NCBI GenBank assembly: GCA_016185705.1
Contig: JACPMZ010000007.1
Location: 107,157-171,156 of the forward strand
Direction of reading: 5' to 3'
From: Candidatus Woesearchaeota archaeon
GTDB lineage: Archaea > Nanobdellota > Nanobdellia > Woesearchaeales > UBA10216
DNA length: 64,000 bases
The first letter of the stretch is position 1. Each line of letters opens with the position of its first letter. The notes under the pieces are model-generated. The model ran no database searches, had not been told where the DNA came from, and saw only the letters and a program-made list of their open reading frames with translations. A program made the position numbers and the translations under genes. This document shows positions 29,948-39,893 of the stretch, piece after piece.

Positions 29948-30415
29948 TCAGGTGGTAAGCTTGGCGAGAATTTCCGTAAGATACCTTGGGCTGATGTAAT
30001 AGCCGGCTTTGACAAGCTGGCTTATTAACGTGACAGCCTCTTTTTTTGTTATAATTTTCCTTCCAACAGCCCTAATAAGCACGCTTGTTGTTCTGAGAAA
30101 ATTTATGCCTAACGCTTTGGCAGCCCTGATTGCTGCTGCATCGTCAATCAAAAGATCGTCATTACTTTCTTTCGCAAGGCTGAGTGAGGAATTCTCGCCT
30201 TTACCAAGCCCCAACTCAACAATTTGCTTAGGGTTGGCAACCATTATCCATCCTTCGTTAATGGCATCGCTTATTGAAGAATGTCCTGGTTTTCCTTCAA
30301 CCAAAACCTCATCCTTAACCACTTCTGTTACTGTAACACTGCCAAACAGCGCTTTTAGCAGCCTCAGCCGGCCAATTTTTGCAAGGCAGATGAGCGGAGT
30401 GGAATTGGCTATCAT
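29948..30415 (-). CDS. DUF3368 PIN-like nuclease toxin
   Basis: 155 aa, paired and overlapping with upstream UPF0175 gene. Confidence 0.6.
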   Translation of the reverse strand: MIANSTPLICLAKIGRLRLLKALFGSVTVTEVVKDEVLVEGKPGHSSISDAINEGWIMVANPKQIVELGLGKGENSSLSLAKESNDDLLIDDAAAIRAAKALGINFLRTTSVLIRAVGRKIITKKEAVTLISQLVKAGYYISPRYLTEILAKLTT

Positions 30416-30723
30416 TTTAGCAGCTTGAGGTCATTTTCAAGGTCTTCTTCAGAATAGCCTGTCCAGTCCAGGTTTCTTTCCTTAACGAGCTCAAGCATTT
30501 CCCACAGAGAAACACCGCATTCTTCTGCTGCCTTCCCAATCGACTTCTTATGCGCAGCAACGTCCTCAAGCGCAGCTTTTATCTTCAATTCATGTATGGA
30601 ACTGACCAGTAAACGACGCACAACTTCGCTCCTGTCAGTCTGCCATCTATTCTCCACTTCGGCCAAGTCCTTCAGGACTGATTTGTCCAGCCTAACTGAT
30701 ATTGTCGCTGCCATTGTATTCAA
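30412..30723 (-). CDS. UPF0175-family antitoxin
   Basis: 103 aa; C-terminal helix-turn-helix AAEECGVSLWEMLELVKERNL typical of UPF0175. Confidence 0.55.
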   Translation of the reverse strand: MNTMAATISVRLDKSVLKDLAEVENRWQTDRSEVVRRLLVSSIHELKIKAALEDVAAHKKSIGKAAEECGVSLWEMLELVKERNLDWTGYSEEDLENDLKLLK

Positions 30724-32940: not shown

Positions 32941-33756
32941 CTATTTGTGTGCGGCTTCTGCAGGTTCTCTTTTTCTAGAATATCCTCTTTCCCGCATGTC
33001 GCCTGATTTAAGGTATGTTACGATATCGGCAATAAGTACACTAGTGTCCTTAGTGTAAGGATGATCAGGGTGCTTCAAGCCAGCTTTGTCGAATTTTGGC
33101 TTAAGAAGGTCTGCCAGTTCCATTCTGTCATCTTCTGTGAACAAATCCTGTGTAGCACGTTGTTCAAGGTTTGTGCGGTACATGGTGCGCGAATTATCTG
33201 CTAAAGTACGCATCCTGCTCAAAGCCTGCGCTTTGGTTTTCCCCCTAAAGCTTCTAAGATAAGTATCCTCAAGCGGATTCAGTCGTCTTCCGGTCTGAGG
33301 GTCAATGTGGTGTTGTGCGAATAACTGACCTTTTAGGCTTCTTATTTCATCTTCCGTAAGTCCCGCTTTCTTTGCTTTCTCAATGCGCTCCTTGAAATCA
33401 GTGATTATTCTGCTAAGCGCTTTATCGACATAATGTTCCATAATGCTAGTAGCTTCGTCTTTCGTCAGCTTGGTGCTTGACTTCTTGTCTTTAAAAACCT
33501 CCTCGATATGGGCCACTCCTGCATGGTAAGAACCTGTTTTCTCATCGTCCGATTTCCCTGTTGGGTTACCGTTTACGACATGCTCAGCGTGCTGTTCAAA
33601 AAGCTCGTCAATTTCGTTTTCAGGATCAGTCTTTTCCTCAAGAGCTTTCATGCGCTCCTCAAGTGGCTCATTAATGTAGCTGCGCATGTACTTAATAACC
33701 TCATGCGCACCCTTTTCCCTTGCTGCCTCAATGGTCACTTTCTTTTCCTTAGCCAT
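32941..33756 (-). CDS. Hypothetical charged helical protein (271 aa)
   Basis: Long ORF, divergent from the NTase-fusion gene. Confidence 0.45.
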   Translation of the reverse strand: MAKEKKVTIEAAREKGAHEVIKYMRSYINEPLEERMKALEEKTDPENEIDELFEQHAEHVVNGNPTGKSDDEKTGSYHAGVAHIEEVFKDKKSSTKLTKDEATSIMEHYVDKALSRIITDFKERIEKAKKAGLTEDEIRSLKGQLFAQHHIDPQTGRRLNPLEDTYLRSFRGKTKAQALSRMRTLADNSRTMYRTNLEQRATQDLFTEDDRMELADLLKPKFDKAGLKHPDHPYTKDTSVLIADIVTYLKSGDMRERGYSRKREPAEAAHK

Positions 33757-33873
33757 GCCCTGCTTTTATCCTATCGCATTTATAAACTTTTTTGCTCTGC
33801 GCAGGTTGGATGCGTCTCCAGCCGGTTGTGAACAGCGTTCTGCAAAGCTTTATAAACATCTGCTGACCACGTT

Positions 33874-35880
33874 TTGTTGTTAAAAATGGCCAAAAAGAAG
33901 AGCAAGGATTACGCTGCTCCTGAGCCGGGCAAAGCAAATGTTCAGGACGAGTTTTCCAGAATTGCTGCGAACCTGCCGAAGGATGCGCAGGCCAAGCTTA
34001 AAGAGATTAAGAAAAGTCTGGACAAGTTCAAGGAGCAGCTTCTGAAGAAGTTTGACAAATACATTATTGGCATTGCATTGCTGCCTCCGAAGCTGAGCGA
34101 GCAGCAGCTTGCAGCTTTGCCGCCGGAGATGCAGATGGCAGCAATGCAGCAGCCGCAGCACGTTTCCCTGCAGCCGCAGATGCCTCAGATGCCTGCAGCT
34201 CCTGTTTCCGGATTACCTACAACAGCTGCGCCTCTGCAAATGCCGGCTCCAGCAGCTCCGCCAAAAGATGCCATTAATATAGTTGTCCTTGTAGATGACT
34301 CAGACAGCAAAAAGATGGCGAAGTTTGAACTGAAGAACAAGCTTACCGCCATAATAATTGAGATTGCGAAGGGCATTGACAAAAAAATAATCCCGCAAAC
34401 CCTTATCCTGTCCGAGCTGTGGCAGAGCTGCTATGATACAAAATATGATTTGCTGAGAATGATCGCCTACTCAGCGCCGTTCTACGATACAGGAATGATT
34501 GCGGCAATAAAAATATCTGAAGTGCACAAGGAAATGGTGCTGAAAAAGTTTGAGAAATACATCGTAAGTTACGTATTGGCAGGCTCGCTGATTCAGGGCA
34601 AGGCAACTGCAAAGTCAGACATTGACGTATTTATCGTAGTGGACGATACTGATGTCAAGCGCATGACGCGCGCTGAGCTCAAGGACAAGCTCCGGGCAAT
34701 AATAATCGGCATGGGCATAGAAGCAGGGGATGCGACAGGCATCAAAAACAAATTAAACGTGCAGGTTTACATTTTAACAGACTTCTGGGACAGCGTAAAG
34801 GAGGCAAACCCGATAATATTTACGTTCTTAAGGGACGGCGTTCCACTGTACGACCGCGGAACGTTCATGCCGTGGAAGCAGCTGCTGCAGATGGGAAGAA
34901 TCAAGCCGAGCAGCGAAGCAATTGATTTGTACATGAGTTCAGGCGACCAGCTGATAAGCAGGGTGAAGTACAAGCTCAAGGAGATTGGCATGGAGGACAC
35001 ATTTTGGGCAATACTGACGCCAACGCAGGCAGCCATAATGCTTTACGGAGTGCCGCCGCCAACTCCGAAAGAAACTCCGGACGTGCTTCGCGATATTTTT
35101 GTAAAAAAGGAAAAGCTGCTGGAGGAAGAATACGTCAAAATACTGGAAAGAAACATCCAGCTTCGCAAGGATTTGGAGCACGGCGACAAAAAAGAGCTGA
35201 CAGGAGCAGAAGCTGATAAGGTGCTGAGCGATTCTGAGAAATACCTGAAGCGGCTCGACAAGCTGTTCAAAGACCTGCAGAAAATAAAGGAGGAGGAAGG
35301 CGTTGTGCAGACCTACGACCGAGTAATAACCGTAATCAGGGACGTGCTTCGGCTGGAAGGAATAGAAAAGGTGAGCGACGTTGAGCTTATAACGATATTC
35401 GAGGACGAGCTCATCAGCAAGGGCAAAATGCCTGCCAAATTCCTGAGGATGCTGAACGGCATACTGAAGGCAAAGCAGGACTACGATGCAGGAAAGCTGA
35501 CGAAAGCAGAGGTGCACAAAATAAAAAAAGACTCGGACGAGATAATCCGCTACTTAATAGAGCACATGCAGCGCAAGCGCGGCAAAGAGCTGGAAAAAGC
35601 AAAGATTCGCGTAAAGCACGGCAACAGGTTCGGAGAAGTTATGCTGATAGGGAGCGACGTGTTCATTATCCACGATGTGGACCATGAAGAAAAAGAAATA
35701 TCGAGAGGCAAGCTCTCTGAGTCTGGCGCAATAACTTCTGTAAAGCGCTCCACCCTCGACGAGCTGGAAAAAGTGCTTGCAAACACAGAAATACCTCCCA
35801 AAGTTTTCATCAAAGAAAAAATATTTGAAGACCTGAAAGCAATCTTTGGGAAGGATGTAGAGATACTTGTAAACAACTAA
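33874..35880 (+). CDS. Large fusion protein: tandem minimal nucleotidyltransferase domains (first degenerate, with Q/P-rich insert) + helical HEPN-like region (R-x4-H)
   Basis: GSLIQGKATAKSDIDVFIVVDD (canonical Pol-beta NTase motif) preceded by a diverged repeat KYIIGIALLPPK...DAINIVVLVDD; LRKDLEHG motif downstream. Confidence 0.6.
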   Translation: MLLKMAKKKSKDYAAPEPGKANVQDEFSRIAANLPKDAQAKLKEIKKSLDKFKEQLLKKFDKYIIGIALLPPKLSEQQLAALPPEMQMAAMQQPQHVSLQPQMPQMPAAPVSGLPTTAAPLQMPAPAAPPKDAINIVVLVDDSDSKKMAKFELKNKLTAIIIEIAKGIDKKIIPQTLILSELWQSCYDTKYDLLRMIAYSAPFYDTGMIAAIKISEVHKEMVLKKFEKYIVSYVLAGSLIQGKATAKSDIDVFIVVDDTDVKRMTRAELKDKLRAIIIGMGIEAGDATGIKNKLNVQVYILTDFWDSVKEANPIIFTFLRDGVPLYDRGTFMPWKQLLQMGRIKPSSEAIDLYMSSGDQLISRVKYKLKEIGMEDTFWAILTPTQAAIMLYGVPPPTPKETPDVLRDIFVKKEKLLEEEYVKILERNIQLRKDLEHGDKKELTGAEADKVLSDSEKYLKRLDKLFKDLQKIKEEEGVVQTYDRVITVIRDVLRLEGIEKVSDVELITIFEDELISKGKMPAKFLRMLNGILKAKQDYDAGKLTKAEVHKIKKDSDEIIRYLIEHMQRKRGKELEKAKIRVKHGNRFGEVMLIGSDVFIIHDVDHEEKEISRGKLSESGAITSVKRSTLDELEKVLANTEIPPKVFIKEKIFEDLKAIFGKDVEILVNN

Positions 35881-36224
35881 ATTTCCAAATCGCTATCCTG
35901 CACGTATTCTTTCCCAAGCTTAATGGAAACTTCCGCTTTCAGCGTTTCCCTGCCGAGATAAGCTGCGTGGTCAAGTCTTGAAACTGCGCCTGATTTCAGG
36001 ATTGCCTGGCATAATTGTTTTGCGCCATCTCCTGCCCACTTCTTCAGAATTACGTTGTTCTGCCTGCAGAGGCCGACTTCTATCCTCTTTGTTTCAGGAT
36101 TTATGCGGATGAGAAAATATCCCTTCGGATCGTAATTAAATTCATCAGCATCATACGCTTTGGCTGCGTCTATTTCCTCCATGCCGCTGCTGAAAGAGAC
36201 TTCCGGTTTTGGTATTTTTGCCAT
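35877..36224 (-). CDS. Hypothetical protein (115 aa)
   Basis: ORF with 4-nt overlap to upstream gene end; GYFLIRINPETKRIEVG motif, family uncertain. Confidence 0.4.
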   Translation of the reverse strand: MAKIPKPEVSFSSGMEEIDAAKAYDADEFNYDPKGYFLIRINPETKRIEVGLCRQNNVILKKWAGDGAKQLCQAILKSGAVSRLDHAAYLGRETLKAEVSIKLGKEYVQDSDLEI

Positions 36225-36341: not shown

Positions 36342-36815
36342 TTAACCCTTAGAACCATAATCCTTGCTTGATGGGCCTGAAACAGAATAATCCTGCTGCC
36401 CCTGCCCTGATGCCGAGTAAGTTTTTGCCGGCGAGCCGTCTGCTTCGTACGCTTTCAGCTGCACGCCTTCCTTAAGGCCTGCAGCTGTTACTGAAAACAG
36501 CTGCCCGCAGCTGCAGCCGGCCATAACCGGCTTCTTTTTTTCTGCAGGTTCGTCCATGCTTTGTTGCCGGGGAGAATCGCTGCTGCTGCTATTCTTATTA
36601 GCATCCTCATTGGAAAAATTAGCAGTAGCTGCGTTGCTCTGAGTTTTCATCTTCCACTCCTGCTCTTCCTCAATTATTCTGCGCTCAAAATCGCTTTCGC
36701 TAATCGGAGCTATGACCACGTCTGTGCCGTCATCATGGTGGTGGCGGGTTTCAATAAGTTTAATGGTATCCTTAAGCTGCTTTTCCCTTATTGCGTCAGA
36801 GATTCCGTCTTTCAT
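36342..36815 (-). CDS. Hypothetical protein with Ser/Gln-rich low-complexity C-terminus
   Basis: Translationally coupled (TAACATG) to upstream zinc-ribbon ORF. Confidence 0.4.
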   Translation of the reverse strand: MKDGISDAIREKQLKDTIKLIETRHHHDDGTDVVIAPISESDFERRIIEEEQEWKMKTQSNAATANFSNEDANKNSSSSDSPRQQSMDEPAEKKKPVMAGCSCGQLFSVTAAGLKEGVQLKAYEADGSPAKTYSASGQGQQDYSVSGPSSKDYGSKG

Positions 36816-36816
36816 G

Positions 36817-37002
36817 TTACAAGTCGCTGCAGTCAGTTTTGAAACCGCAGTTAGGGCAGATGTAAGTGCAGTGCACCCTCTTAATTGTCGTTCCGCACAT
36901 AATGCATTCCTCAGGGCTCACGCTTAAAACATTTTGCACATATAAAGCCAATATGCGGAGTTTTATTAATTTATCGCTGGACCGCTTAAGCACTCGCCGC
37001 AC
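36817..37002 (-). CDS. Zinc-ribbon protein (61 aa, CxxC...CxxC)
   Basis: ECIMCGTTIKRVHCTYICPNCG. Confidence 0.4.
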   Translation of the reverse strand: MRRVLKRSSDKLIKLRILALYVQNVLSVSPEECIMCGTTIKRVHCTYICPNCGFKTDCSDL

Positions 37003-37113: not shown

Positions 37114-37758
37114 ATGGCTGAAGGTGCGAAAGGATTATTTGCGCGGTTCCGAAAGAAGAAAGAGGAAAAGCCCGCTGATAAAAAAGGGCCAATTGAGATT
37201 CATGAGCCGCACGCACCTGCTTACAGCGAAAGCATTGGCAAGCTGTTCCCTACAAGAATAAAATACCGCGGGCTTTATGACCTGGATGGCCTGTACAGGC
37301 TGATGTCAAACTGGCTGAGGCAGAGGCGCTACCGCGTATATGAAACTCTTTACAAGTCCAAGCCGCCTGAGCTTGAAATAAGGTGGACTGCTGAAAGGGA
37401 AAAGTCAGGGTTTGTGATGGAAGTCATTACAATTTACTACCACAGCTACGGGGAATATGATGTTGACGTTGTAATCAACGGCAGGAAGAAGAAGATGACA
37501 AACGCTAGGATGATTCTGACCTTGGGCGGTGACATAAAGGCGCCTTACGAAGACATATTCGGAAGGCCCCGGTGGACTGCAAACGCAACTGAGCGAAGAC
37601 TGCTAAACCTCTTCCGGAACTGGTTTGTCAAAAGGGATTTGGAATCAGTTTACTGGGATACATTGTATTATGAACTGCAGAAATTCCAGGGAGCCATAAA
37701 GGATTTCCTCAGAATGGAAGCAAAAGGAAACATTTACGAATCCAAGCCGAGTGAATAA
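37114..37758 (+). CDS. Hypothetical protein, paralog 1 of a tandem pair
   Basis: Shares Y.GL....L..L...WL...., KK(M/I)...R / G.V.M motifs with downstream gene. Confidence 0.5.
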   Translation: MAEGAKGLFARFRKKKEEKPADKKGPIEIHEPHAPAYSESIGKLFPTRIKYRGLYDLDGLYRLMSNWLRQRRYRVYETLYKSKPPELEIRWTAEREKSGFVMEVITIYYHSYGEYDVDVVINGRKKKMTNARMILTLGGDIKAPYEDIFGRPRWTANATERRLLNLFRNWFVKRDLESVYWDTLYYELQKFQGAIKDFLRMEAKGNIYESKPSE

Positions 37759-37760
37759 AA

Positions 37761-38300
37761 ATGTCGGAAAGAAGATTGGTTGTGGACCACATGCGCCTGA
37801 AGTACGAAGGGCTGTTCAGCGCATTCGAGCTGTACAAACTTATTGATAACTGGCTGAGGGAGAAAGCGTTTGACAGGAGAGAGCTGCGAAACGAGGAGCA
37901 TGTGCGTCCTGATGGAAAATACGTTGAGCTTGTGCTGATGCCGTGGAAAAAGATAACTGACTACGCACGCCACGTAATACGGCTGGAGATAAGGATGCAT
38001 AAGCTGAAGGAAGTCGTGGTTGAGAAAGACGGCCAGCGCATGAAAATGAACCAGGGCAGGGTGGACATGATAATAGATGCGTACCTTGATACGGATTATG
38101 AGGACCGGTGGGAGCAGAAGCCGTTTTACTTCTTCATGCGCACGCTGTTTGACAAATTCATATACCGGACGTACTCAACCCAGTTTGAAGAATTGCTTGT
38201 GGAGAATGTTCATCAGCTGCACACAGCCATCAAGTCGTTTCTGAACCTGTACAAATACGAGTTTGAGCCGATGACATTGCCTGAAATGACTAAGCTGTGA
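37761..38300 (+). CDS. Hypothetical protein, paralog 2 of tandem pair
   Basis: 2-nt spacing from paralog 1; homologous core. Confidence 0.5.
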   Translation: MSERRLVVDHMRLKYEGLFSAFELYKLIDNWLREKAFDRRELRNEEHVRPDGKYVELVLMPWKKITDYARHVIRLEIRMHKLKEVVVEKDGQRMKMNQGRVDMIIDAYLDTDYEDRWEQKPFYFFMRTLFDKFIYRTYSTQFEELLVENVHQLHTAIKSFLNLYKYEFEPMTLPEMTKL

Positions 38301-38472
38301 TTGTTTTTTCTATTGCATGTCAGTAGGGCAATGCTGTTCTTAACAGCAACGGCTTTGCAAGCAGAGGGGAAGCAAAAAGAAATCTGGAGATATTTAAAAT
38401 GCTGCACAAGTTGGCGTAAGAATGCGGGCAGCGGAAATCCGATGGTTTCCTGGTCTGCATTTAGTTCGTAAA

Positions 38473-38569
38473 TGCGGGGGACGTGATTCGAACACGCGCA
38501 ACCACTAAGGTACAGGATTGCTTCTGAAACTTAAGTCCTGCGCTTTTGACCAGACTCAGCCACCCCCGC
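38473..38569 (-). tRNA. tRNA-Leu (anticodon UAA) with putative 11-nt intron at canonical 37/38 position
   Basis: 7-bp acceptor GCGGGGG/CCCCCGC, 3-bp D-stem, anticodon stem CAGGA/TCCTG, long variable arm, T-arm GCGTG-TTCGAAT-CACGT. Confidence 0.6.
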
Positions 38570-38792
38570 ATAGCGGCATTGCTTCAGGCATTGTTTATAA
38601 ATTTTTGTGGTGTGTGAAGTCAGCTCCTCAAGTATCTGCCTTTATCCTGCCAACTCAAATTCCAATCCCCCAACTCAATTTCACGCTGCGCTGCTTTTTT
38701 TCCCTCCCCTAAAATTTAAGGGGAGGAAAAAAAGCAGCGGGGACCCTTACATTTGCGAAAGTCTAATAAGCCAGTGCAGTAATTGTGTGTGA

Positions 38793-39810: not shown

Positions 39811-39893
39811 GCCTCTGTAGCTCAGTGGTGGAGCGTTACCTTGGTATCCATACAAAAAGGTAGAGGTCGCGGGTCCAATTCCCGCCAGAGGCT
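39811..39893 (+). tRNA. tRNA-Thr (anticodon GGU) with putative 11-nt intron at 37/38
   Basis: Acceptor GCCTCTG/CAGAGGC, D-arm GCTC-AGTGGTG-GAGC, anticodon stem TTACC/GGTAG, T-arm GCGGG-TCCAATT-CCCGC. Confidence 0.6.

What the first reader, a model, noticed from the sequence alone, without database searches (positions are those of the whole stretch)
33874..35880. 668-aa single-chain tandem nucleotidyltransferase (one copy degenerate with Q/P-rich insert) fused to HEPN-like helical modules
Residues about 230-330 carry a canonical minimal Pol-beta NTase motif (GSLIQGKATAKSDIDVFIVVDDTD). Residues about 60-200 are a clear internal repeat of the same domain (KKFDKYIIGIA... / KKFEKYIVSYV...; INIVVLVDDSDSKKM / IDVFIVVDDTDVKRM; ELKNKLTAIII / ELKDKLRAIII). 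In the first copy the Gly-Ser loop is replaced by a roughly 50-aa low-complexity insert (LAALPPEMQMAAMQQPQHVSLQPQMPQMPAAPVSG...) and the second acidic residue is lost, making it a built-in pseudo-subunit. Downstream helical regions contain R-x4-H (LRKDLEHG), as in HEPN domains. MNT-HEPN pairs are normally separate toxin-antitoxin or defense proteins. A covalent pseudo-dimer NTase fused to HEPN-like regions is unusual. The gene is flanked by unexplained genes: a divergent 271-aa protein, a tandem paralog pair and a zinc-ribbon operon.
Basis: partly seen in the sequence, partly recalled or inferred. Interest (0 to 1): 0.7.

Follow-up and report, generated by a model that had tools for sequence, protein, structure and literature searches.

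The report
DPANN core single-chain MNT–HEPN nucleotidyltransferase
This gene encodes a very strongly conserved protein of the tiny Woesearchaeota/DPANN archaea that looks like a toxin–antitoxin complex (two nucleotidyltransferase and two HEPN domains) joined into one chain, with only one copy of each still intact; it behaves like a housekeeping enzyme, not a defence gene, and its substrate is unknown.

Summary
The ORF most likely starts at ATG 33886 and encodes 664 aa. It contains an intact minimal Pol-beta nucleotidyltransferase (GS...DxD, aa 233-247). Before it lies a degenerate copy of the same domain, whose Gly-Ser loop is replaced by a disordered P/Q-rich insert. After it lie two HEPN domains, not just "HEPN-like helices": the first keeps R427-x4-H432 and the second is degenerate. 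A roughly 100-aa C-terminal domain matches no known family.

The defence/toxin-antitoxin framing is not supported. The family occurs in at least 593 GTDB species genomes, and the named ones are Woesearchaeota/Nanoarchaeota. It is more conserved than threonyl-tRNA synthetase in the same genome pairs. It sits in housekeeping contexts.

It very probably belongs to the DPANN-specific "MNT fused to HEPN" cluster (cls.004259/NEQ050). Makarova, Wolf and Koonin (2019) flagged that cluster as conserved and uncharacterised.

As far as I could check, two things are new. First, the five-module layout MNT'-MNT-HEPN-HEPN'-Cterm, which puts a 2:2 complex into one chain. Second, a gene order found in many Woesearchaeota: NTase, then a CBS/Zn-ribbon gene, then 2-4 tandem paralogs. 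The window's "paralog pair" belongs to that order.

The most likely function is an ATP-dependent nucleotidyl transfer to an unknown RNA or protein substrate.

The parts
33849..33856 (+). TATA-box-like element (TTTATAAA) about 30 nt upstream of the ATG. This fits a leaderless or short-leader archaeal transcript.
   Evidence: Sequence read. The element is inferred from the archaeal promoter consensus and was not tested.
33886..35880 (+). Gene for the 664-aa MNT'-MNT-HEPN-HEPN'-Cterm protein. The ATG at 33886 is the likely true start; the mechanical TTG start is at 33874.
   Evidence: ORF. (P0001 is 100% identical, 664 aa). (five-module architecture in 148 of 186 long family representatives).
33886..34053 (+). 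Lys-rich disordered tail (aa 1-21) followed by a long helix (aa 22-56). That helix is helix alpha-1 of the first, degenerate NTase copy.
   Evidence: Model secondary structure and pLDDT. Alignment A1.
34054..34500 (+). Pseudo-nucleotidyltransferase (copy 1, aa 57-205). It has the same fold as copy 2 but lacks the GS and both DxD aspartates. It keeps the 'VDDSD' cap motif.
   Evidence: BLASTP E 3e-15. hhalign 99.5%, E 3.5e-23. Column statistics.
34090..34269 (+). Disordered P/Q/M/A-rich insert (aa 69-128) in place of the Gly-Ser loop of copy 1. Its length varies across the family (0-180 aa).
   Evidence: pLDDT below 50 at aa 89-124. Alignment A1. Length distribution. No tandem DNA repeat apart from a 22-nt trace.
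34501..34899 (+). Catalytically intact minimal nucleotidyltransferase (copy 2, aa 206-338).
34582..34653 (+). Active-site motif G233-S234...S244-D245-I-D247...D253-D254-T255-D256.
   Evidence: Among 294 members: G233 100%, S234 96%, D245 and D247 97%, DDTD 98-99%.
34903..35283 (+). HEPN domain 1 (aa 340-466), of the UPF0332/AF0298 type.
35164..35181 (+). R427-K-D-L-E-H432, the HEPN R-x4-H motif.
   Evidence: R 91%, H 92%, K428 97%, E431 96% of 294 members. 24 members keep the NTase DxD but lack R or H.
35284..35583 (+). HEPN domain 2 (aa 467-566), degenerate. K530-x2-Y533 stands where the R-x4-H motif would be.
   Evidence: hhalign of HEPN1 against HEPN2: 97.5%, E 6.3e-12. Column statistics.
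35584..35877 (+). C-terminal alpha/beta domain (aa 567-664; five strands, two helices, one strand) with no detectable relatives outside this family.
   Evidence: Secondary structure. No significant Pfam or PDB profile hit. Present in 148 of 186 long representatives.
37114..37758 (+). Paralog 1 (214 aa) of the conserved downstream 'PAR' family. It is a linked gene, not part of the protein.
   Evidence: PAR genes lie downstream of the NTase gene in 22 of 57 loci that have at least 3 kb of downstream sequence, usually as 2-4 tandem copies. No Pfam or PDB sequence match.
37761..38300 (+). Paralog 2 (179 aa) of the same PAR family. The predicted fold is strand-helix-antiparallel sheet-long C-terminal helix (KA1/SRPBCC-like).

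Best explanation
The gene encodes a housekeeping enzyme specific to DPANN archaea (Woesearchaeota and the wider Nanoarchaeota). It descends from a minimal-nucleotidyltransferase/HEPN (MNT-HEPN, type VII toxin-antitoxin-like) module. The four domains that normally form a 2 MNT : 2 HEPN complex have been joined into one polypeptide in the order MNT'-MNT-HEPN-HEPN', followed by a family-specific C-terminal domain.

Only one nucleotidyl-transfer site survives (G233-S234, D245-x-D247 in copy 2). The first MNT copy and the second HEPN copy have degenerated into scaffolds.

Shown here: the domain homologies, the internal duplications, the near-invariance of the NTase catalytic residues, the taxonomic spread, the very strong purifying selection and the housekeeping context.

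Inferred:
- The protein uses ATP or another NTP to nucleotidylate a hydroxyl group on a conserved cellular substrate. RNA 3' ends or a partner protein are the most plausible targets.
- The NTase2-HEPN1 pair forms the catalytic and substrate-binding cleft, as in the two-domain ANT/KNTase enzymes.
- The pseudo-domains provide the other half of an intramolecular pseudo-dimer.
- R427/H432 of HEPN1 more probably bind a phosphate or nucleotide, or provide a secondary activity, than act as the main catalytic centre. They are less conserved than the NTase site and have been replaced in many divergent lineages.

It does not behave as a mobile toxin-antitoxin or defence gene.
For: Domain assignment:
- Pfam and NCBIfam MNT hits at aa 223-276.
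- A profile of 35 diverse members hits the UPF0332 HEPN protein AF0298 (E 1.5e-6) and MntA (E 1.9e-4) in the PDB.
- Foldseek aligns about 286 columns (NTase plus helical domain) to ANT(9), ANT(4') and AadA at E about 1e-4.

Duplications:
- hhalign copy 1 against copy 2: 99.5%, E 3.5e-23. HEPN1 against HEPN2: 97.5%, E 6e-12.
- The five-module architecture occurs in 148 of 186 long representatives.

Active site:
- G233 100%, S234 96%, D245/D247 97% of 294 members spanning 23-100% identity.
- 41 residues are at least 95% conserved. They cluster in NTase2 and the start of HEPN1.

Core-gene behaviour:
- More than 4,790 homologues.
- 711 clusters at 50% identity.
- At least 593 GTDB species genomes.
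- Identity exceeds that of ThrRS in the same genome pairs: 85 vs 78, 66 vs 57, 67 vs 57 and 65 vs 63%.
- One copy in the window.

Context:
- Neighbours include ThrRS, ribosomal proteins, Rpr2-S19e-L31e, Alba/S17e, a SpoU methylase and EF-1alpha.

Literature:
- A DPANN-specific cluster, cls.004259/NEQ050, is described as MNT fused to HEPN, in housekeeping context and unusually conserved (PMC6393860).
- HEPN domains fused to MNTs typically serve as substrate-binding or regulatory domains of domesticated TA modules (PMC3710099, section 14).
Against: - No substrate, partner or activity is shown. Everything about the reaction is inferred.
- HEPN1 keeps R-x4-H in about 90% of members, unlike the usual inactive HEPN of fused MNT enzymes. 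A real RNase activity is therefore not excluded.
- The inter-domain packing (intramolecular pseudo-dimer) could not be inspected. The tool returned no coordinates, and pTM is only 0.56.
- Two divergent lineages (the P0159 and P0166 groups) have lost both the DxD and the R/H. At least there, the protein works without catalysis.
- Identity with the NEQ050 cluster was not tested directly.
Confidence: 0.6

Rival explanations
1. The protein is a self-contained (fused) type VII toxin-antitoxin or abortive-infection module. HEPN1 would be an RNase toxin kept silent by in-cis oligo-AMPylation from the adjacent MNT, as in HepT/MntA and the fused FhepTA proteins.
For: - MNT and HEPN are the canonical type VII pair. 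MntA is the best NCBIfam and PDB sequence match for the NTase.
- R-x4-H is kept in about 90% of members.
- Fused MNT-HEPN TA proteins exist (PMC13000451).
- Makarova et al. wrote that the cluster is 'most probably' a TA module.
- There are weak PADLOC hits to candidate systems PDC-S09 and PDC-M05A.
Against: - The distribution is broad, with very high conservation, in at least 593 species genomes.
- The gene is more conserved than ThrRS.
- Neighbours are housekeeping genes, not mobile or defence genes.
- There is no Tyr acceptor two residues after the His; the position is T/D/E/K.
- The partner HEPN2 lacks R/H, so a canonical two-motif composite RNase site cannot form within the chain.
- 24 divergent members keep the NTase site but have replaced R or H.
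- The PADLOC matches cover only the generic MNT core, at 20-24 bits.
Confidence: 0.12
2. The protein is an essential RNA-processing or RNA-tailing factor. The HEPN pair would bind and possibly cleave a conserved RNA (tRNA, rRNA or mRNA ends), and the NTase would add nucleotides to the resulting or existing 3' end.
For: - The retained R-x4-H, K428 and E431 lie in a HEPN fold whose known activities are RNases.
- MNT-type relatives such as MenT and HalB act on nucleic-acid 3' ends (listed).
- The protein is Lys-rich.
- Neighbours in different lineages include ThrRS, RNase P Rpr2, Alba, a SpoU RNA methylase, and archease/RtcB.
- Extreme conservation would fit a conserved RNA substrate.
Against: - The context links are individually weak and vary between lineages.
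- No recognised RNA-binding domain was found.
- The closest two-domain structural matches are small-molecule adenylyltransferases.
- R/H has been lost in many divergent members.
Confidence: 0.2
3. The protein is a non-enzymatic scaffold or structural protein that merely reuses MNT and HEPN folds.
For: - Half of the domains are already degenerate.
- Two lineages have lost the remaining catalytic residues as well.
- There is a long, variable disordered insert.
- Some members are fused to about 800 aa of TPR repeats, which are typical protein-interaction scaffolds.
Against: - G233, S234, D245 and D247 are 96-100% conserved across members down to 23% identity. That is hard to explain without catalysis.
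- The most conserved residues cluster around the NTase2 site.
Confidence: 0.08

Closest known systems
DPANN-specific cluster cls.004259 (representative NEQ050 of Nanoarchaeum equitans), from Makarova, Wolf & Koonin 2019, PMC6393860
   Same: That cluster is described as MNT fused to HEPN, conserved in 36 of 67 DPANN genomes, in housekeeping context and of unknown function. The taxonomic range and behaviour match what was found here. The Woesearchaeota genome GW2011_AR15, which carries the gene (L080), was in their data set.
   Different: The match to NEQ050 itself could not be tested. The text available describes neither the internal duplication of both domains, nor the C-terminal domain, nor the CBS/PAR neighbourhood.
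Type VII toxin-antitoxin HepT/MntA (HEPN/MNT) and its fused form FhepTA
   Different: - All four domains are in one chain, in the order MNT'-MNT-HEPN-HEPN', with one copy of each degenerate.
- There is no Tyr acceptor next to the R-x4-H.
- The gene is a widely conserved housekeeping-type gene rather than a patchy mobile module.
Two-domain adenylyltransferases ANT(4')/KNTase, ANT(9) and AadA
   Different: - Sequence-family membership fails: NCBIfam ANT(9) scores 18 bits against a cut-off of 340.
- This protein carries its own pseudo-partner in cis.
- It keeps R-x4-H.
- It has an additional C-terminal domain.
Glutamine synthetase adenylyltransferase GlnE
   Different: - GlnE is arranged NTase-helical-NTase-helical with both NTase domains active. 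Here the order is NTase'-NTase-HEPN-HEPN' with one dead copy of each.
- There is no sequence-level match.
- GlnE is bacterial; this family is found in DPANN archaea.
UPF0332 / AF0298-type HEPN proteins (PDB 2hsb)
   Different: AF0298 is a stand-alone 126-aa protein whose motif reads R-x4-Y (LREESDYG). Here the motif is R-x4-H in HEPN1 and K-x2-Y in HEPN2.

Membership tests
Minimal nucleotidyltransferase (Pol-beta superfamily; Pfam NTP_transf_2 PF01909 / Polbeta PF18765) | hG[GS] loop followed by [DE]x[DE] on the next strand | tested here: met
   Copy 2 reads AG233S234...S244D245ID247. Across 294 members G is 100%, S 96% and both D 97%. Copy 1 does not meet this feature (LLPP...A-I-N).
Minimal nucleotidyltransferase (Pol-beta superfamily; Pfam NTP_transf_2 PF01909 / Polbeta PF18765) | Profile score above the curated threshold | tested here: met
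   PF01909 scores 24.2 bits against a cut-off of 21. PF18765 scores 25.8 against 26.9, just below its cut-off.
Minimal nucleotidyltransferase (Pol-beta superfamily; Pfam NTP_transf_2 PF01909 / Polbeta PF18765) | Alpha/beta NTase fold | tested here: met
   [not shown]
HEPN superfamily | Four-helix up-down HEPN bundle | tested here: met
   [not shown]
HEPN superfamily | R-x4-6-H motif | tested here: met
   HEPN1 has R427-x4-H432 (R 91%, H 92%). The motif is not met in HEPN2 (K530...Y533), and it is replaced in 24 divergent members that keep the NTase site.
HEPN superfamily | Endoribonuclease activity | not testable with these tools
   This needs an RNase assay of the wild type against R427A/H432A.
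Type VII TA system HepT/MntA (including fused FhepTA) | Tyr acceptor for AMPylation adjacent to the R-x4-6-H motif | tested here: not met
   The positions after H432 are G433 and then T/D/E/K at 434. There is no conserved Tyr.
Type VII TA system HepT/MntA (including fused FhepTA) | Patchy, mobile-element-associated distribution typical of TA modules | tested here: not met
   At least 593 species genomes. More conserved than ThrRS. Housekeeping neighbours.
Type VII TA system HepT/MntA (including fused FhepTA) | Toxicity of HEPN neutralised by MNT | not testable with these tools
   This needs expression and toxicity experiments.
DPANN cluster cls.004259 (NEQ050) | MNT fused to HEPN, DPANN-restricted, housekeeping context | tested here: met
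   Domain content. All named hits are Woesearchaeota, Nanoarchaeota/Nanoarchaeia or Parvarchaeota. Context. Published description.
DPANN cluster cls.004259 (NEQ050) | Direct sequence relationship to NEQ050 | not tested
   The NEQ050 sequence could not be obtained.
ANT/KNTase-type aminoglycoside nucleotidyltransferases | Family-level sequence membership | tested here: not met
   NCBIfam ANT(9) scores 18 bits against a cut-off of 340, and ANT(4')-II scores 11.5 against 350. Only the two-domain fold is shared.
GlnE-type tandem adenylyltransferases | NTase-helical-NTase-helical order with two active NTase sites | tested here: not met
   The order here is NTase'-NTase-HEPN-HEPN', and copy 1 lacks the catalytic residues.

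The most novel reading that the evidence does not exclude
In Woesearchaeales the NTase, the downstream CBS-pair/Zn-ribbon protein and the 2-4 tandem KA1-like 'PAR' proteins may form one lineage-specific regulatory machine.

In this reading, an adenine-nucleotide sensor (the CBS pair together with KA1/AMPK-alpha-CTD-like subunits, reminiscent of the AMPK regulatory core) would control, or be controlled by, AMPylation from the single-chain MNT2:HEPN2 enzyme. That would couple the energy state of these host-dependent cells to RNA or translation control.

This would be a previously unknown housekeeping use of toxin-antitoxin hardware.
Probability: 0.1. Interest if true: 0.8.

Novelty: new variant of a known kind. 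Interest (0 to 1): 0.55.

Why it matters
DPANN archaea have very few lineage-specific conserved genes. Makarova, Wolf and Koonin (2019) listed their MNT-HEPN fusion cluster among four DPANN-specific conserved uncharacterised families in their table of priority candidates for experimental characterisation, because a toxin-antitoxin-type protein is not expected to be conserved like a core gene.

The present analysis gives that kind of protein a concrete anatomy. It is a complete 2:2 MNT:HEPN assembly in one chain, with one live and one dead copy of each domain, plus a new C-terminal domain.

It shows that the nucleotidyl-transfer site, not the HEPN R-x4-H, is the part under the strictest constraint.

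It also names candidate partners: the CBS/Zn-ribbon and PAR genes, and TPR fusions.

This turns an annotation puzzle into specific experiments, namely AMPylation or RNA-tailing assays with D245A/D247A and R427A/H432A mutants. If confirmed, it would be a clear case of a selfish TA module domesticated into an essential cellular enzyme.

Tried and rejected
- Defence-island or TA reading: rejected on distribution, conservation and context. PADLOC gave only generic MNT hits.
- Assembly artefact or recent duplication: rejected. There is no DNA-level repeat and there are thousands of homologues.
- The divergent 271-aa gene (32941..33756) as a conserved partner: rejected. An iterative search finds it in only 8 of 87 loci.
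- C-terminal domain identity: a profile against the PDB and Pfam scans of 21 members gave nothing significant. hhalign against the protein's own NTase and HEPN modules was negative.
- Linking to NEQ050: the afdb50 fold library was unavailable. Text searches for NEQ050 returned unrelated DOI strings or nothing. The paper's supplement held no cluster member list. A search seeded with a divergent member (P0160) returned Woesearchaeota, Nanoarchaeia and Parvarchaeota hits but no N. equitans entry among the 120 best.
- Taxonomy of the TPR-fused and other divergent members: the cluster look-up returned no organism names apart from one Candidatus Nanoarchaeia label (P0131).
- Inspection of domain packing in the AlphaFold model: not possible, because only summary data are returned.
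- Correlated loss of DxD and R/H: Fisher p 1e-9, but this reflects only about two independent lineages, so I do not treat it as evidence of coupling.
Full report
**1. What is in the sequence**

The ORF reported at 33874..35880 (+) is real. Its mechanical start is a TTG. Four codons later, the ATG at 33886 gives a 664-aa product that is 100% identical over its full length to an NCBI protein. That protein is annotated 'nucleotidyltransferase domain-containing protein [Candidatus Woesearchaeota archaeon]' and comes from a 250-kb contig (P0001). A TTTATAAA element at 33849-33856 lies about 30 nt upstream of this ATG, as expected for an archaeal promoter driving a leaderless or short-leader mRNA. 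I use 664-aa numbering throughout. The window has the gene content of a DPANN archaeon: ThrRS, small hypothetical genes and two tRNAs.

**2.

- Pfam places NTP_transf_2 (24.2 bits, above the 21-bit cut-off) and Polbeta (E 1.2e-5) at aa 223-276. NCBIfam's best hit is the MntA antitoxin model.
- The internal repeat is significant. BLASTP of copy 1 against copy 2 gives E 3e-15, 36% identity over 86 residues.
- Profile-profile comparison, using sub-alignments cut from a 294-member family alignment, gives probability 99.5%, E 3.5e-23.
- The alignment places the P/Q/M/A-rich stretch (aa 69-128) exactly where the Gly-Ser loop of copy 2 lies.
- That stretch is disordered in the AlphaFold model. In homologues it ranges from 0 to 180 residues, median 16.
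- Copy 1 lacks the GS and both aspartates of the DxD (A129-I-N131 here).
- There is no DNA-level duplication. The repeat is ancient and not an assembly artefact.

**3. The helical region is two HEPN domains, followed by a new domain**

- A profile of 35 diverse family members hits the UPF0332 HEPN protein AF0298 (PDB 2hsb) at E 1.5e-6. R427KDLEH432 aligns to its LREESDY motif.
- Residues 467-566 are a second HEPN copy (hhalign against HEPN1: 97.5%, E 6e-12). K530-x2-Y533 stands in place of R-x4-H.
- Residues 567-664 form an alpha/beta domain with no detectable relative in Pfam or the PDB.
- The full layout is therefore MNT'-MNT-HEPN-HEPN'-Cterm.
- Domain HMMs built from the family find all five modules in 148 of 186 long representatives. 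The rest mostly lack only the most divergent modules.
- One variant (P0228) has the order MNT-HEPN-HEPN'-MNT'-HEPN.
- Some members of 1,100-1,340 aa carry about 800 residues of N-terminal TPR repeats.
- Foldseek aligns the NTase2-HEPN1 unit as a whole (about 286 columns) to the two-domain adenylyltransferases ANT(9), ANT(4')/KNTase and AadA, and to HalB.

**4. Which parts are constrained**

In 294 members spanning 23-100% identity:
- G233 is invariant, S234 is 96%, D245 and D247 are 97%, and the following D253-D254-T255-D256 cap is 98-99%.
- The 41 positions that are at least 95% conserved cluster in NTase2 and the first half of HEPN1.
- The HEPN motif is somewhat less constrained: R427 91% and H432 92%, whereas K428 and E431 are 96-97%.
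- 24 sequences, mostly divergent 50%-cluster representatives, keep the NTase DxD but have replaced R or H with Y, W, F, H, K or S.
- No Tyr follows the His at the position that MntA AMPylates in HepT.
- Two divergent lineages (the P0159 and P0166 groups) have lost both the DxD and the R/H.

I conclude that nucleotidyl transfer is the primary conserved chemistry. The HEPN1 R/H has an accessory role, such as phosphate or nucleotide binding or a secondary nuclease activity.

**5. Distribution and selection**

- The word-indexed search found more than 4,790 homologues. The 120 best are all full-length, 59-85% identical, and where named are Woesearchaeota.
- The exhaustive search of 50%-identity representatives found 711 clusters at E no higher than 1e-3 and 183 at E no higher than 1e-30.
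The 80 best include the complete genome of archaeon GW2011_AR15.
- A search seeded with a divergent member returned Nanoarchaeia/Nanoarchaeota and Parvarchaeota entries.
- In four genome pairs where ThrRS is also available, the NTase protein is more conserved than ThrRS: 85 vs 78, 66 vs 57, 67 vs 57 and 65 vs 63%. Without the insert, the NTase figures are 70-89%.
- Only one copy is present in the window.

This is the behaviour of a core gene, not of a TA or defence module.

**6. Genomic context**

There is no defence or mobile context. In distant lineages the gene sits beside:
- Rpr2-S19e-L31e;
- Alba and S17e;
- a SpoU methylase;
- EF-1alpha, or an M50-like peptidase plus a PRC-barrel gene.

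Clustering ORFs from 87 loci revealed a recurrent co-directional order in Woesearchaeota: NTase, then a gene of about 180 aa encoding a CBS pair plus a C-terminal Zn ribbon, then 2-4 tandem paralogs of 170-210 aa that I call 'PAR'. Among 57 non-redundant loci with at least 3 kb of downstream sequence, CBS is present in 29, PAR in 22 and both in 16.

The window's 'tandem paralog pair' (37114..37758 and 37761..38300) belongs to this PAR family. Here the CBS gene is absent from the whole window. Three opposite-strand genes lie between the NTase gene and the PAR pair: a DUF4346 gene (35877..36224), a 157-aa ORF (36342..36815) and a 61-aa Zn-ribbon ORF (36817..37002).

The divergent 271-aa gene upstream is found in only 8 of 87 loci and is not a conserved partner.

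**7. Comparison with what is known**

Makarova, Wolf and Koonin (2019; PMC6393860) list, among four DPANN-specific conserved uncharacterised families in their Table 1, cluster cls.004259 (NEQ050). [quoted passage not shown] It is present in 36 of 67 DPANN genomes. They remark that its unusual conservation suggests an important role.

GW2011_AR15, which carries the present gene, was in their genome set. The description fits in every respect I could test. I could not obtain NEQ050 to test the match directly.

Anantharaman et al. (2013; PMC3710099) describe how MNT-HEPN TA pairs have repeatedly been domesticated into fused enzymes such as KNTase and GlnE/GlnD. In those enzymes the HEPN domain has usually lost its catalytic residues and serves substrate binding or regulation. 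Fused MNT-HEPN TA proteins that still act as toxins also exist (FhepTA; PMC13000451).

The present family differs from all of these:
- It contains two copies of both domains in one chain, matching the stoichiometry of a 2:2 MNT:HEPN complex, with asymmetric degeneration.
- It keeps R-x4-H in one HEPN in most members.
- It adds a new C-terminal domain.
- It is a lineage-wide core gene.

It fails the membership tests for type VII TA (no Tyr acceptor, not patchy), for the ANT families (scores far below their cut-offs) and for GlnE (different domain order).

**8. Most likely mechanism, with the steps marked**

Shown:
- the fold and homology of each module;
- one intact NTase site;
- strong purifying selection;
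- DPANN restriction;
- housekeeping context.

Inferred:
- The enzyme transfers a nucleotidyl group, probably AMP from ATP as in MntA and the ANT enzymes, to a hydroxyl on a conserved cellular acceptor.
- NTase2 and HEPN1 form the active cleft.
- MNT' and HEPN' supply the second half of an intramolecular pseudo-dimer.
- The C-terminal domain, the disordered insert and, in some lineages, TPR repeats mediate partner binding.
- The acceptor is unknown. RNA 3' ends and a partner protein (the CBS/Zn-ribbon or PAR proteins) are the leading candidates.

My probabilities are about 0.6 for the general picture and about 0.12 for a genuine TA/defence role. I give about 0.2 for the more specific RNA-processing version and about 0.08 for a purely structural role.

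**9. Verdict**

The family is probably already on record as an uncharacterised DPANN signature protein, so this is not a discovery of a new kind of system. The single-chain 2+2 architecture with paired pseudo-domains, the finding that the NTase site is the most constrained element, and the conserved CBS/PAR neighbourhood all make it a well-defined target for experiments.

Novelty: new variant of a known kind. Interest: moderate, 0.55.

Noticed in passing
[not shown]
   Followed up: partly
L005:8106-8624, L078:6564-7103, L020:7953-8510 and 34 other loci; absent from the window: A gene of about 180 aa encoding a CBS pair plus a C-terminal zinc ribbon lies downstream of the NTase gene, often directly, in 29 of 57 informative loci. 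The window has no homologue anywhere in its 64 kb. Three opposite-strand genes lie between the NTase gene and the PAR pair: DUF4346 35877-36224, a 157-aa ORF 36342-36815 and a 61-aa Zn-ribbon ORF 36817-37002.
   Followed up: partly
window 29948-30723 (-): A UPF0175-family gene (30412-30723) overlaps a PIN-like/DUF3368 gene (29948-30415). This looks like a typical toxin-antitoxin pair. In the closely syntenic relative L001, only an 81-aa gene with no Pfam hit lies next to ThrRS at the corresponding side, so the pair may be a local insertion. Homology between the two regions was not compared.
   Followed up: no
window 39811-39893 (+) and 38472-38570 (-): Rfam finds two tRNAs, but ARAGORN reports only the 99-nt tRNA-Leu(TAA). 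The second tRNA (83 nt, 56 bits) is missed by ARAGORN and may be atypical or contain an intron.
   Followed up: no
proteins P0182, P0184, P0191, P0197, P0205, P0214 (metagenomic; no locus fetched): Some family members are 1,100-1,340 aa long, with about 800 N-terminal residues of TPR repeats in front of the MNT'-MNT-HEPN core. P0197 has a high-GC-like composition. Their taxonomy could not be determined.
   Followed up: partly
proteins P0159/P0392 and P0166/P0394-P0398: Two divergent lineages have lost both the DxD of the otherwise active NTase copy (SPIKI / SEINI) and the HEPN1 R/H, while keeping all five modules. In those lineages the whole protein appears to be a pseudo-enzyme.
   Followed up: partly
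protein P0228 (633 aa, acidic composition): This variant has a different domain order, MNT-HEPN-HEPN'-MNT'-HEPN, and no C-terminal domain. That suggests an independent or alternative route of duplication and fusion.
   Followed up: no
loci L010-L013, L015, L016, L021 and others (record titles): Many MAG records that carry this Woesearchaeota-type gene are titled 'uncultured Methanosarcinales archaeon'. These look like taxonomic mislabels of DPANN bins in the public records.
   Followed up: no
window 32941-33756 (-): The divergently transcribed 271-aa protein has its own TATA-like element (about 33779-33787) and no Pfam hit. Homologues appear in only 8 of 87 loci, so it is a fast-evolving or sporadic gene of unknown function.
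   Followed up: partly
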